From NCBI GenBank assembly GCA_951406725.2, contig OX597815.1, positions 170,996,001 to 171,060,000 on the forward strand: DNA of 64,000 bases. Direction: 5' to 3'. This document shows positions 1,590-59,795 of the stretch, piece by piece (position 1 is the stretch's first letter; each line of letters starts with the position of its first letter). The translations under genes and the position numbers were made by a program. This stretch comes from Octopus vulgaris. Lineage: Eukaryota. The notes below the pieces were generated by a model. That model did no database searches, had not been told where the DNA came from, and saw only the letters and a program-made list of their open reading frames with translations.

Positions 1590-1633
<44 letters not shown>

Positions 1634-1683
1634 ATGGAAGAAATGGAGTTGAACGAAGATTGTACAGAATTCCTTTTATTACA

Positions 1684-1763
1684 TTCTACACATGTTTCAA
1701 AGGCCACAAATTTCCAAATTCTGAATAAATAAGGGTCCCATATTGGGGCTTTCTCTTCAGGAA
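1684..1763 (-). ncRNA. Type I hammerhead ribozyme (inverted copy)
   Basis: Minus strand reads UUC-CUGAAGA-GAAAGCCCCAA...UUGUGGCCUUU-GAAA-CAUGU-GUA-GAA; core intact. Confidence 0.75.
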
Positions 1764-2233
1764 GCAAACGCTAGAACTATATATACCCTTAGGATTCTTT
1801 GACGATGTTAAATTTTGACAAGCAGGCCTAGACGAACACACGAACACAAAAAATTTTTTCAGCCGCCTGACAGGTTTTTTCAGCAGTGATCATTATGTAG
1901 CCCACCTCGCCAGCACACGGCCGCGCACACATAGGCCAGTACACACATACATGCTTTTAGGTAGTTTTTTTTGTCTCGCCCCCAAAAATACACCCAGTAT
2001 TCTTAAATTATTCAGAACATTAGTGTTGGTCACACAGAACATCTCCACACCCCTTGCTCTCACCTACTAGATCTGACCGCCGCCTGACCTGTAGATATCT
2101 TCAACGCACCAAACCCCCGATTTCAACGTACATTGATAAACAGTTCAGCCATGGGCTCTTAAGGAGCGTCCTCGTTCGAATTGCGTTGCTGCGCCTCTGT
2201 TTTGTTTTGTTCTGTCAACGGAATTCCTGTTTT

Positions 2234-2313
2234 TTCCTGAAGAGAAAGCCACAATATGGTACCCTTATTTATTCAGAATTGGGAAATTTGTGGCCTTTGA
2301 AACATGTGTAGAA
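2234..2313 (+). ncRNA. Type I hammerhead ribozyme
   Basis: Stem I UUC/GAA; core CUGAAGA (2237-2243); stem II GAAAGCCACAA/UUGUGGCCUUU (10/11 pairs); GAAA (2299-2302); self-complementary stem III ACAUGUGU; GUA cleavage triplet at 2308-2310. Confidence 0.8.
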
Positions 2314-2522
2314 TGTAATAAAAGGAATTCTGTACAATCTTCGTTCAACTCCATTTCTTCCATTCACTAATAATATTAAACTTCAATTATCCGCACCAAC
2401 GCACGGTTGCAACACCAAATGGTCTTATCTCCAACCGTGCTTTTTTCTGCTGTGATTTTTGCTACCCAGGTATCGGTTAAACTTTTGAATAATCTGTAAC
2501 AAGAAAATTCATCTTTCTATTT

Positions 2523-2528
<6 letters not shown>

Positions 2529-2617
<89 letters not shown>

Positions 2618-29152: not shown

Positions 29153-29199
29153 AGCCAATCACAAACCACAGACATATAGGTGCCTGTTTCCATAGTAAC
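29153..29199 (+). promoter_or_regulatory. CCAAT box plus RFX X-box-like motif
   Basis: AGCCAATCA (29153-29161) and GTTTCCATAGTAAC (29186-29199) match the NF-Y and X-box consensus; motif match only. Confidence 0.3.
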
Positions 29200-29790
29200 G
29201 AGCCAAGTTGTTACCAAGCTGCTTACACCGCTGTTACTGTCCTGTTCTGTCCATCGTATAGTAATTTTTTGCTTATTAAATGCTTAAAACACATGAGGTA
29301 CGTATGAGGTGGTCGTGAGAGTGCTAAAAAATAACAAGTAAATAGGCCTTAAATCACGCACTATTTTTCTTTTTTGCATAATCGTATGAATTCCCGTGTG
29401 TAGAATACAAATTTATAAAACTTTTCTGAAAATTTAAAAAAATAAATAAGCTATGAGGGATTATATGGCGTGCGTAACACAGAATTCCGCTAATATTTCA
29501 TTTCTTTATAGTTTGATATAAAAAATACGCAACGTTTACAACACGTACAGTCAGGCACAAAATGACAGTTTCCAAATCGTATTTTCAGACTGGGTAAAAA
29601 TTATCGAAATTTAAACCTCTGTAACTTTTTTTTATAATCTGAGATTCAGCATGGAAAATTACCTATTTACTTGTTATTTTTTAGCACTCTCACGACCACC
29701 TCATACGTACCAAAAAATTACTATACGATGGACAGAACAGGACAGTAACAGCGGTGTAAGCAGCTTGGTAACAACTTGGCTCGTTACTAT
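29192..29790. repeat. Inverted duplication (155/129-bp arms, about 315-bp spacer)
   Basis: 29192-29346 and 29662-29790 are identical except for one 26-nt indel. Confidence 0.92.
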
Positions 29791-29828
29791 CATCGATACA
29801 CCAAATTTGGGAATTTTCATTTAATTTT

Positions 29829-30335
29829 AAAAGCAAAAAGCAACAAAAGTCACTGAAAAGAATATTAACCAGCGCTAGACTTTACCCACTAACTACTGAG
29901 CCAAAAGTGACAAAATGTGGACGTTCTAACTGTGGAACATGCCCCCACCTTCTGGAGGGTTCAGAATTCCAATTCAAACAAGGAGAAATATTTAAGATCA
30001 AATCAAATTTCACCTGCGCCTCAGCAAATGTAATCTATGTCATGACACGCATAGGATGTGGTAAACTCTATATTGGACAAACAGGAATTTCACTCCGTCA
30101 AAGAATCACCATTCACAAAGAGCAAATCCATCACCCACAATACAGACAGTTAAAGGTGAGTGAACGCATAGAAAGATGCGCCAGGAATCTTAATCCCAAT
30201 TTTCAAATATTCCCCTTTTACCTATGCTCACAGAACACCACAATGCAACAAAGGCTGAATAAAGAGACATTTTTCATCAACAAATTTCTCCCCCAACTAA
30301 ATATGAACACACAACTCAATACAGAATACCACTAA
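29829..30335 (+). pseudogene. Penelope-like element C-terminus: Cys-rich Zn-finger linker + GIY-YIG endonuclease (Neptune-type), 5'-truncated
   Basis: Open frame KSKKQQKSLKRILTSAR...KCGRSNCGTC...FTCASANVIY..C..YIGQT..LRQR..H...RLNKE..I....PQLN matches the PLE GIY-YIG motifs; no RT upstream. Confidence 0.9.
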
Positions 30336-30754
30336 CTCTTCATTTGAAACCACTAAACACTATACACTACCTACATCACTCACATCTCTAATTCCAGAAC
30401 TACTTACCTCCCTTACAAATAATCTTTTTTCTCAGGAACTATTAGACTTGACACCGTATATTAACCGGTGTTGTTCAAACGATGAATAGCCTTCGCGGCG
30501 TAAACCACTGGTTCGTTTTATTCTCTTACTTTATTATCATCTTATAATCATCTCATAATAATGGCCTTTATGACTCGTATTACTACTCCAGTCAATCTAA
30601 ATGTATATATTTGTCACTACCTGTCATAAACAGCCTTTTTCTATTTGCAATATGCATTTTCGTTGATTTTTTCATATTTTACCCTTGCATTTCCACGTGT
30701 ATTTTATATTTTCTTTTCGTAACATATTTCTACTTTCTTTTCGTAACATATTTC

Positions 30755-30757: not shown

Positions 30758-30789
<32 letters not shown>

Positions 30790-47600: not shown

Positions 47601-47734
47601 AGTCAGTATCATGATGATACGGTAGAAATCGATGAATATGGTGTGGTAACGGGAGCATGCGTAATCTGAAAATCGACTGAACTTTTACATTATTTACATT
47701 TGACGGATATTTGTCCTCATCTTGTTTGTTGTTA

Positions 47735-47779
47735 GCACAACGTTTCGGCTGATATACCCTCTAGCTTTCGTTAGGTGTC
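47735..47779 (-). ncRNA. Mutated hammerhead (inverted arm)
   Basis: GACAC-CUAACGA-A-AGCUA...CAGCC-GAAA-CGUU-GUGC; G5 lost and stem II broken. Confidence 0.7.
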
Positions 47780-47837
47780 TTGGGGAAATTTCGAACCTAG
47801 GTTCTCATTCCTAAGGTATTTTTCGATCTTATTATTA

Positions 47838-48003: not shown

Positions 48004-48109
48004 AAGAAGAAGAAGAAGAAAAAATAATAATAATAATAATAATAATAACAACAACAACAACATCGAAAAATACCTTAGGAATGAGAACCCAGGTTCGACA
48101 TTTCCCCAA

Positions 48110-48155
48110 GACACCTGATGAAGGCTGGAATGTATATCAGCCGAAACGTTGTGTT
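48110..48155 (+). ncRNA. Minimal type I hammerhead ribozyme, intact
   Basis: GACAC-CUGAUGA-A-GGCUG-(10 nt)-CAGCC-GAAA-CGUU-GUGUU; palindromic AACGUU; predicted cleavage after 48150. Confidence 0.88.
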
Positions 48156-48964
48156 AACAACAAACAAGATGAGGACAACCGTCAAATGTAAATAATGTGC
48201 ATAATCCCTCATCTCTTAAATATAGAACTGTATGACTGAACTTTTACTGAGTGCAATTGCAAGCAAGTCTCTGCCGGCCAGCGTTATAGGTCACTGTACT
48301 AAGAGTCCTGTAACTTTGCCGGATATCTACAAGAGTAGGAACCGGAACGAGTTGCAAGCCGAGTAAGCAGTCACACTCAGAACTGCGATGAATCTATTCC
48401 CAAAGAATTGTCGAAAGCATGTATGACATCCATTATTTATAACTACCAAATCATCACTTGTGGTCTCAATTTTTATGTGATCATATTGGAGTAACTTTTC
48501 ATTGGTATCTTATGAAAACGGAGCATTCCAACGATTAGACGGTCTTTTGTAACCAACATTCAATGCACAGGGTGATAGTATGCAGTAGTTGATTGATTTT
48601 CGGGTGTGCAACGAACCTGTGACATCTGAAGATAGCCGGATCTAGAGATGTTCCTTTATAATGCCACTATTTTTTCTTAACATATAATTTTTATTCTGCT
48701 GGTCATATTAGCTATCTGGATGTTATGCTTTTATTAATCTTAACTCTGGAACAAAATAGAAGAGACAGATGAAATCTGTAACATAATAAAACTTAATATA
48801 GTTATAATTTCAGGTGTTAGGCTTTAAACAGTAAAAATTAATAAACCAATATTATGAAGACCTATAATTTTATGGATCAAAATAGAAACAAGAACGTTTA
48901 TAAAACACGGAATTTCCACAGTCCTGCTAATTGTTTGATCAGTTTATTATTACACAGAAGTTTA

Positions 48965-54177: not shown

Positions 54178-54995
54178 CAGGAAATACCAACTAATTACCT
54201 GATGCAGAAAAGGGATAAAGATGCAGAAAAAGCCATAAAATGTGACAACTGATGCAGATGTTGTGGAGTTCACACTGAAGATATCACCCACATCATAAGC
54301 AGGTGTCCGAAAATGTCATCACAGTATTATCTACCGATGAGACATGATGTTGTAGCTATGACACTCTATAATGAAATCCGTCGGAAGGATAATCCCGAGG
54401 ACAAAGAAATAAGAACCCACAATATGATAGAAGCCATAGCCACTCATAATAAAAAGGAATACTGGTGGAATGTAGCAGTGAAGACCTCAATAAAATGTAA
54501 GCACAGCAGACCTGATATAATGATTTGGGATAGCCAAGAGAAATCTGCAGTTACTCTATCCAGATTACAAGTTCAGCTATATACCTGTAATTATTGGGGC
54601 CCTGGGATATGTAACACACTGACTAAATACTAATCTTGAGAAATTAAGCTTCTTAAAACCTGAAAGGAGAAAGCTAATTCGAAGACTACAAATCCAATCC
54701 ATCACTGGAACTGTAAAATCTGCAAGACTTTCCAGAAGTTTATCATTTAAATATATATATGAACATGTCTAGATATGCATGAGAATACGTACATAAATCA
54801 TACAAATCTGCACGCACATACATACATACATACATACATACATACATACATACATACATACATACATACATACATACATACAAACAAAAATACCCTGTTG
54901 TTGATGCTGAAATTTCAATGATGGAGCATTGGCTCTAGGTCAGAAACCTGTTCTTTCTCTATTGGCAAGAAATCTTGAATTAAACTGAATAATGA
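54178..54995 (+). mobile_element. 5'-truncated R4/Dong-type RLE LINE (CCHC knuckle + endonuclease + 3' UTR)
   Basis: QEIPTNYL...[18 protein letters not shown]...RHDVVA...YWWN....RPDIMIWD, then a deletion/frameshift, then LYPDYKFSYIPVIIGALG...QSITGTVKICKTFQKFII* (stop at 54748-54750). Confidence 0.9.
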
Positions 54996-58955: not shown

Positions 58956-59795
58956 GCATGGAAAAATACGAGCAAGAGAAATAATATTCTTAAGATTATA
59001 AATGTTAAAAATTACAGGACAAGTTATTACATCTAGTAAAGTACAGAACAAGAAAGTGTTTACTCAAAATACTGCAGATAAGGATAAAATCTGAATATTA
59101 AAAATTATTTGACTTTAATTTACCAAGTAACATTATAACTAAAAAAGGCTATCATCATTTTGTTAAAATATTGAAACACTACAATACTTTAAAAATGAGA
59201 ATCAGAAGTACCAATATAGCTAAAGTTTTATGCAAAGAAGAATAGCATATATAATAGGCAAATTCATTGTGTAAAAAATAGGCATTGGGTCAAGACTAAA
59301 AATGTGAAGACTTAGCAATAACTTAGGCAATAACTCAAGCAAATTTTACTGTGAATTTGTTATTATATGTAGATTTTACTGTAAGATATATACTATTTTT
59401 TGAATTCTATTTATTATATTAACTAATTATGTACTACTATTATTTTTATAACCTATTTTCAAATTTCTAATTATTAATAATCTAAAAAATGAACTGAATT
59501 TTTTTAAAGAGCAAAAAATATTTTGAGTCATTTGTTTTTAATAACAAGTAATAACAAATGGAATTAATAACTTATAATAAACTTTTTAGTTTTAAAAGCT
59601 AATATTTTCTAAATCTAAATATTTTATTTGAAATTTTATCCTTAGCTGCAATATTTTAAGTAAAAATTTTCTTGTTGTGTACTTTACAAGATGAAATAAC
59701 TTGTCCTGAACTTTTCCAAGTCTGATAATTGTTCAATACATTTCCGGGTTTATATTCTTAAGAAAATTATTTCTCTTGCTCGCATTTTTCTATGC
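58956..59795. mobile_element. Old foldback/MITE-like element with degenerate TIRs of about 200 bp
   Basis: GCATGGAAAAATACGAGCAAGAGAAATAAT..., CAGGACAAGTTATT and GTAAAGTACA are mirrored at 59580-59795. Confidence 0.7.

What the first reader, a model, noticed from the sequence alone, without database searches (positions are those of the whole stretch)
1628..2528. Two intact back-to-back hammerheads whose inverted repeat stops exactly at the ribozyme 5' edge
Seen: 136-bp inverted arms each contain CUGAAGA / long stem II / GAAA / ACAUGUGU / GUA. Arm similarity ends at stem I (1763 and 2234). Stem III can pair fully only intermolecularly (ACAUGUGU duplex with two G-U pairs). The 470-bp spacer is non-coding and relatively GC-rich. 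Established: PLE minimal hammerheads can act as dimers. Inference: both strands could yield cleavable RNA, and the breakpoint may record template switching at the ribozyme structure. Stem II is unusually long for a minimal motif.
Basis: partly seen in the sequence, partly recalled or inferred. Interest (0 to 1): 0.7.

Follow-up and report, generated by a model that had tools for sequence, protein, structure and literature searches.

The report
Penelope-like insertion with inverted hammerhead arm
This is most likely one truncated copy of a very abundant Penelope-like jumping gene, sitting in a TA microsatellite with a short flipped duplicate of its end, a layout already described in print; the flipped arm starts inside, not at the edge of, the predicted self-cutting RNA motif, which may mark where the copied RNA began.

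Summary
The 136-nt inverted arms (133/136 identical) and both hammerhead cores are real. The symmetric reading is not. Public contigs show a high-copy family reading on +, with depth halving every 63-116 nt upstream, and 2233/2234 is native sequence. Only 1763/1764 is a breakpoint. The native (right) motif has a predicted extra 11-bp distal helix I (2218-2228/2323-2333); the left arm lacks it and has a helix II mismatch, so it is not intact. Each strand holds one sense core, and a read-through RNA would pair arm to arm (132-133 bp), so the pair cannot dimerise in cis. Opposite-strand hammerhead pairs 100-700 bp apart and inverted pLTRs with a one-sided tail are published Penelope-like features. 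Both arms cross the cut site, so the template was likely uncleaved. Contig depth steps up near 2232 (best change point in 2 of 4 runs), a weak hint that the RNA begins there; 0 of 2 other listed inversion joints lie there. Unchecked scan notes report the same edge pile-up in other genomes. Unusual: a 55-nt helix II insert. No RT or endonuclease gene could be linked. Verdict: new member of a known kind.

The parts
1593..1629 (.). (TA)n microsatellite, left flank of the insertion; 2 nt shared with the arm end
   Evidence: sequence
1628..1763 (-). Inverted, 5'-truncated 136-nt copy of the element's pseudo-LTR
   Evidence: orientation
1684..1763 (-). Left hammerhead motif: core intact, helix I only 3 bp, one helix II pair broken; predicted cut after 1687
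1763..1764 (.). The single inversion junction (head to head); no microhomology on the side that can be seen
   Evidence: not among the joints listed
1764..2233 (+). Native upstream part of the element (non-coding, 45% GC; likely 3' UTR/pLTR), 5'-truncated at 1764
   Evidence: depth gradient; GC; no Pfam hit
2218..2333 (+). Native type I hammerhead motif: distal helix I 2218-2228/2323-2333 (predicted), proximal helix I 2234-2236/2311-2313, core 2237-2243 and 2299-2301, helix II insert 2244-2298, palindromic helix III 2302-2309, predicted cut after 2310
2234..2369 (+). Right arm: the part of the native pLTR duplicated in the inverted arm; 2369-2376 is a recurrent 3' end followed by (AT)n
   Evidence: loose end behind 2376 in 6 contigs of run X4
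2370..2528 (+). One-sided 159-nt extension ('tail'), longer than the 30-40 nt usual in print
   Evidence: sequence; covered at family depth; PMC8557442 passages
2529..2614 (.). (TA)n microsatellite, right flank

Best explanation
The locus is a 765-nt copy of a high-copy repeat reading on the + strand, with an inverted 136-nt duplicate of its hammerhead-bearing end, between two (TA)n tracts; it is most likely a single 5'-truncated Penelope-like retrotransposition product. Shown: the arms, the orientation, the native right junction, a recurrent 3' end near 2369-2376, and that both arms run through the predicted cut site. [quoted passage not shown] The left hammerhead is a passive by-product. I put about 0.85 on the PLE architecture and about 0.4 on the run-off step.
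For: Depth rises with position across 1764-2231 in 4 of 4 runs (Spearman 0.88-0.95; halving every 63-116 nt), as expected of 5' truncation on +. Native junction bridged (X8 record 31). The motif and its native flanks fit the published consensus 'U-rich NNN CUGANGAH..GAAAN palindrome NUH NNN AU-rich'. Opposite-strand pairs 100-700 bp apart (PMC4209133), a second motif on the opposite strand at the 5' end of a truncated PLE (its supplement), inverted pLTRs with a tail on one side (PMC3846280; PMC8557442), microsatellite bias. In vitro a Poseidon protein nicks and extends both strands, starts at two internal RNA sites that define the tail, and uses unprocessed RNA (PMC11167929). Both arms share T at 2272, where nearly all laid depth has A, so they come from one template lineage. 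Depth steps up at the 2232 bin: 1.4-7.2 times the extrapolated gradient, best change point in 2 of 4 runs.
Against: No RT or GIY-YIG frame is linked to this family, so PLE membership rests on motif and layout. The depth step is only third-best in X2 and X5, adjacent bins vary up to 7-fold, resolution is a 26-nt bin, and subfamilies that diverge upstream would give the same step and gradient. 0 of 2 listed opposite-strand joints (1984/2107, 2149/2300) end at 2229-2236, though this locus's own joint was not listed either. A second inverted hammerhead pair in the window has its inner edge about 52 nt upstream of its core. No TATA, Inr or TCT match lies at the edge in this copy. In D. virilis Penelope the start site is about 120 nt upstream of helix I (46 nt + 75-nt intron; PMC2377424; PMC4209133). 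The tail is 159 nt, not 30-40.
Confidence: 0.6

Rival explanations
1. Same PLE insertion, but the arm's start at helix I is chance: short copies dominate the family, so many ends fall near the hammerhead anyway.
For: 0 of 2 other listed inversion joints lie at the edge. The second pair in the window starts about 52 nt upstream.
Against: Depth step at the 2232 bin above the gradient in 4 of 4 runs (1.4-7.2x), best change point in 2 of 4.
Confidence: 0.3
2. Fold-back or template switch: the first cDNA stopped at 1764, re-primed on itself (or on a second RNA) at the U6 tract/TTC by microhomology, copied 2234-2369 and joined the TA tract through the TA-rich patch at 2368-2376. The first reader's version, a switch caused by ribozyme structure, is a sub-case (about 0.07).
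For: Gives the same geometry (inference). Self-priming is proposed for inverted PLE junctions (PMC3846280). Native GGAA/GAA just upstream of 1764 would supply microhomology; that sequence is unknown.
Against: No palindrome at this junction and no microhomology on the visible side. 2369-2376 is a recurrent family end (6 contigs), which fits an RT start site. Structure-induced stops are expected at the 3' foot of helices (inference).
Confidence: 0.2
3. The family is a non-autonomous hammerhead retroelement (retrozyme-like) moved in trans by a PLE, not the end of a coding PLE.
For: 470 non-coding nt upstream; an extended helix I with internal loop as in canonical type I motifs; retrozymes are reported as PLE derivatives (bioRxiv 10.64898/2026.07.22.740005).
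Against: No tandem unit: 765 nt without a direct repeat, whereas non-LTR retrozymes are tandems of about 300 bp (PMC7229834).
Confidence: 0.12
4. A functional bidirectional cassette in which both strands give self-cleaving RNA or the two motifs partner each other.
For: Both cores intact; helix III palindrome; bidirectional pLTR transcription has been proposed (PMC3846280).
Against: One sense core per strand; read-through RNA folds arm to arm; left motif truncated and mutated; the junction is not listed in 4 of 4 runs (an insensitive test); published minimal motifs cleave poorly even as dimers.
Confidence: 0.04
5. A MITE or foldback DNA transposon whose terminal inverted repeats happen to contain a hammerhead.
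For: Non-coding interior between inverted repeats, TA flanks.
Against: The right arm is not terminal (159 nt follow); depth falls several hundred-fold across the interior, unlike a fixed-end element.
Confidence: 0.04

Closest known systems
Insertion units of endonuclease-bearing Penelope-like elements (Penelope/Poseidon, Neptune, Hydra): 5'-truncated copy with an adjacent inverted pLTR and a one-sided tail (PMC8557442, PMC3846280, PMC2377424; passages seen)
   Same: 5' truncation, inverted truncated copy at the 5' end, extension on one side only, microsatellite target
   Different: No coding remnant in the 470 nt retained; tail 159 nt rather than 30-40; no palindrome at the junction
Metazoan PLE hammerheads (min-HHR and palindromic-helix-III variants; Cervera and De la Pena 2014, PMC4209133; parts 1-2 of 4 and supplement parts 1-2 of 3 read)
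   Same: CUGAAGA/GAAA/UH core, 3-bp proximal helix I, U-rich upstream and AU-rich downstream flanks, palindromic helix III, opposite-strand pairs 100-700 bp apart
   Different: 55-nt helix II insert against about 23-24 at most in 56 listed motifs; G rather than H after A9 and no G10.1-C11.1 pair (G-U or A-U, both seen in some listed motifs); a predicted 11-bp distal helix I
Poseidon of Anolis carolinensis, in vitro system (PMC11167929; parts 1-2 of 4 read)
   Same: Two 3' ends downstream of the hammerhead, AT-rich target, copies that cross the cut site
   Different: There the ORF starts in helix II and the two starts are close; the paper parts read do not treat where inverted arms begin
Non-LTR retrozymes (PMC7229834 passages; bioRxiv 10.64898/2026.07.22.740005 part 1 of 5)
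   Same: Non-coding, type I hammerhead, animal repeat
   Different: Not a tandem of about 300-bp units here; has an inverted arm and a truncation gradient

Membership tests
EN+ Penelope-like element | ORF with PLE-type RT and GIY-YIG endonuclease | not testable with these tools
   No such frame in the retained 901 nt; no genome held; contigs laid give no sequence upstream of 1764
EN+ Penelope-like element | Type I hammerhead in the terminal repeat | tested here: met
   consensus
EN+ Penelope-like element | 5'-truncated dispersed copies | tested here: met
   depth gradient in 4 of 4 runs; contig depth is a rough measure and divergence could contribute
EN+ Penelope-like element | Inverted truncated copy at the 5' end | tested here: met
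EN+ Penelope-like element | 30-40-nt one-sided tail | tested here: inconclusive
   A one-sided extension exists but is 159 nt; second end near 2369-2376 recurrent
EN+ Penelope-like element | AT-rich or microsatellite target | tested here: met
   (TA)n on both sides; a target duplication cannot be read in a microsatellite
PLE minimal hammerhead (min-HHR) | Conserved core and 3-5-bp helix I | tested here: met
   none of the 40 variant rows shown (of 122) falls in the core
PLE minimal hammerhead (min-HHR) | Helix II of 4-8 bp with small loop, unpaired H after A9, G10.1-C11.1 | tested here: not met
   55-nt insert with about 10 bp and a bulge or mismatch; G-U or A-U closing pair
PLE minimal hammerhead (min-HHR) | No or palindromic helix III, cleavage as a dimer | tested here: inconclusive
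   Palindrome present, duplex -6.0 kcal/mol; cofolding two copies did not return the dimeric hammerhead fold; cleavage not testable
Non-LTR retrozyme | Head-to-tail tandem units each with a hammerhead | tested here: not met
   No direct repeat in the locus; other loci not testable
MITE / foldback DNA transposon | Terminal inverted repeats with fixed ends | tested here: not met
   Right arm internal; interior depth not flat

The most novel reading that the evidence does not exclude
Penelope-like transcripts of this family start inside helix I, between its distal and proximal parts, so the 5' copy of the ribozyme is born disarmed while only the read-through 3' copy has the full helix I. Inverted arms and short copies are run-off cDNAs from twin priming, and their ends record this start site genome-wide: a DNA fossil of the RNA's 5' end and a built-in switch for where the ribozyme may cut.
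Probability: 0.25. Interest if true: 0.6.

Novelty: new member of a known kind. Interest (0 to 1): 0.27.

Why it matters
As found it is an ordinary PLE-type insertion. Two open questions that PMC8557442 names touch it: how inverted pLTRs form, and what the hammerhead does. If arm starts pile up at proximal helix I, copy ends would map the template's 5' end without RNA data and could tell twin priming from fold-back. A motif with a 55-nt helix II insert and a distal helix I is also a new construct for cleavage assays. One locus cannot carry either claim.

Tried and rejected
Rfam: no hammerhead model matched. No whole genome held. No second copy of the family in the window. Pattern scans: 43 metagenome loci matched a 19-nt pattern, but BLAST of all 43 gave only 19-34-nt matches around the pattern, taken as chance; 0 in viral contigs and 0 in prokaryote genomes. 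So no covariation alignment could be built. My first idea, that the element reads on the minus strand behind the TATATATA at 1776-1783, was rejected by the depth gradient and the bridged right junction. An intron ending at helix I, as in D. virilis: pyrimidine tract present, but the nearest AG lies inside the core (2241, 2243) and no GT..AG joint is listed; not supported. Promoter motifs: none at the edge in this copy; the common A variant at 2229 would fit the recalled Inr pattern YYANWYY, but that pattern occurs 11 times per kb, so it carries no weight. No RNA holder is on record; run X8 is only guessed to be RNA, so nothing is said on expression. Unconstrained folding does not give the hammerhead: the constrained fold is 7.2 (right) and 9.4 (left) kcal/mol above the minimum. 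The distal pair list printed was off by one; one search has the right register, and the energies did not use that list. Variant placement: 7 of 9 shown variants in 2218-2333 are in unpaired positions, 2 in helix II keep wobble pairs, 0 in the core (P 0.047), but 82 of 122 rows were not shown, so this is only a hint. Literature searches returned no paper stating that PLE copy or arm ends cluster at helix I; the library lacks most subscription papers, and supplement file 1 of PMC4209133 could not be searched. PMC6962438 passages gave nothing relevant.

Full report
Observation. The arms are real: 1628-1763 (-) and 2234-2369 (+) match at 133 of 136 positions. Each carries TTC-CTGAAGA, a 55-nt insert, GAAACATGTGTA and GAA, that is a type I hammerhead core with a 3-bp proximal helix I and a palindromic helix III. 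The 470-nt spacer is 44.9% GC against 33.9% for the window and 8 of 8 stop-free frames tested have no Pfam hit. The unit lies between two (TA)n tracts, and 159 nt follow the right arm. Rfam does not recognise the motif. The window is a microsatellite-rich animal sequence; its repeats resemble ones I recall from octopus genomes, which no call tested.

Which side is native. No genome is held, so I laid contigs of four public runs from four studies on 1764-2530. All 30 bins are covered in 4 of 4 runs, with summed depths up to hundreds of thousands: a high-copy family. Depth rises steadily from 1764 to 2231 (Spearman 0.88-0.95, halving every 63-116 nt), which points to 5'-truncated copies reading on +. 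One listed contig (X8 record 31, 2138-2287; 32 pieces shown, 2611 not) bridges 2233/2234 with at least 31 letters on each side, and the common variant at 2229 lies 32 letters from a contig end in 3 of 4 runs. The U-rich flank there matches the published consensus. So 2233/2234 is native and only 1763/1764 is a junction. Six contigs of run X4 go on into (AT)n behind 2376, so the left arm's outer end is a recurrent 3' end of the family. Both arms share T at 2272 where nearly all laid depth has A, so they come from one template lineage.

The ribozyme. In the native copy, 2218-2228 pairs with 2323-2333 (11 bp, one G-U), extending helix I beyond an internal loop. Controls make this suggestive, not certain: 105 of 6302 window 40-mers and 15 of 2000 shuffles pair as well. 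A common variant at 2334 would add a twelfth pair. The inverted arm starts between the distal and proximal parts, so it lacks this helix, and it has a change that breaks a helix II pair (-6.9 vs -13.0 kcal/mol). The left motif is therefore not intact, and the arm ends inside the likely full motif. Each strand has one sense core, and a transcript across the unit is predicted to pair arm to arm over 132-133 bp, so the two motifs cannot form the cis dimer. The 55-nt helix II insert exceeds the longest (about 23-24 nt, my count) among 56 published motifs; that is the one unusual structural trait. None of the 40 variant rows shown (of 122) hits the core.

Is the breakpoint special? Depth steps up at the 2232-2257 bin by 1.4, 7.2, 3.7 and 2.3 times the extrapolated gradient (X2, X4, X5, X8), and this bin is the best change point in 2 of 4 runs and third in the other two. 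Against: bins vary up to 7-fold, contig depth is not copy number, and subfamilies that diverge upstream would give the same step. The 2 listed opposite-strand joints (1984/2107, 2149/2300) do not end at 2229-2236; this locus's own joint is not listed, so the test is weak. A second inverted hammerhead pair in the window (47687-47826/48063-48198) has its inner edge about 52 nt upstream of its core. From the halving distances, a core-containing copy would start within 7 nt of the core 4-7% of the time by chance (my arithmetic). Three unchecked notes of this scan on other genomes describe ends piling up just upstream of the core; they are leads, not support.

Mechanism. Both arms run through the predicted cut site, so their template was uncleaved or re-ligated (inference), in line with the Anolis Poseidon result that unprocessed RNA is the main substrate, that both DNA strands are nicked and extended, and that two internal starts define the tail (PMC11167929, parts 1-2 of 4). 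The simplest account is twin priming: a long cDNA from about 2528 that stopped at 1764, a short one from about 2369 that stopped at about 2234, and head-to-head joining. Why 2234: run-off at the RNA's 5' end (about 0.4), chance (about 0.3), or fold-back at the U tract (about 0.2). A stall caused by ribozyme structure is unlikely, because the 3' strands are already copied when RT reaches the 5' edge. No promoter motif or splice acceptor sits at the edge in this copy, and in D. virilis the start lies about 120 nt upstream of helix I (PMC2377424 passages; PMC4209133), so run-off is not shown.

Comparison with what is known. Cervera and De la Pena report dual motifs 100-700 bp apart on opposite strands, long helix II, palindromic helix III variants and low activity even as dimers (PMC4209133, parts 1-2 of 4), and a truncated PLE with a second motif on the opposite strand at its 5' end (supplement). 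Inverted pLTRs with a one-sided tail and microsatellite bias are standard (PMC8557442 passages and section 15; PMC3846280 passages). The element works like an EN+ PLE insertion; membership lacks the defining ORF, which could not be reached, and a non-autonomous derivative is not excluded (bioRxiv 10.64898/2026.07.22.740005, part 1 of 5; PMC7229834 passages). Eight searches found no paper on ends clustering at helix I, within a library that lacks most subscription papers.

Verdict. Real, mostly ordinary: a new member of a known kind, interest 0.27. What remains is the long helix II, the distal helix I, and a weak hint that the template RNA starts inside helix I (probability 0.25, interest 0.6 if true).

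Noticed in passing
window 47687-47826 (-) and 48063-48198 (+): Second head-to-head inverted pair of another hammerhead-bearing repeat (91% alike) around (ATT)n/(AAT)n tracts; right core intact at 48115, left core mutated; shared inner edge about 52 nt upstream of the core.
   Followed up: partly
window 29772-30335 (+): 5'-truncated PLE endonuclease end with a CxxC motif upstream of GIY-YIG (Pfam PF01541, E 3.4e-05), Neptune-like by recalled layout; a degenerate hammerhead-like motif near 30479-30520 and (TA)n near 30760 follow.
   Followed up: partly
window 29192-29346 and 29662-29790: Inverted pair (83% alike) directly upstream of that endonuclease fragment.
   Followed up: no
window 58956-59106 and 59618-59795: Old inverted pair (74% alike) in an AT-rich stretch, possibly a decayed MITE.
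   Followed up: no
window 2220-2230 and 2324-2333: The two strands of the distal helix each contain the palindrome GAATTC, so they are also a near direct repeat; in cofolding, two RNA copies swap these strands, a possible extra dimer contact.
   Followed up: partly
window 1862-1871 and 2079-2088: A 10-nt word (GCCGCCTGAC) occurs twice in the spacer (seen).
   Followed up: no
window 2250-2281: Contigs show several subfamilies differing in the helix II insert (2250, 2251, 2261, 2262, 2270, 2272, 2281; a different run of letters behind 2269).
   Followed up: partly
window 54253-54633 (+): 126-aa stop-free frame beginning CRCCG..HIISRCP with an RPDI motif, resembling from recall the end of a non-LTR retrotransposon with a restriction-like endonuclease.
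   Followed up: no
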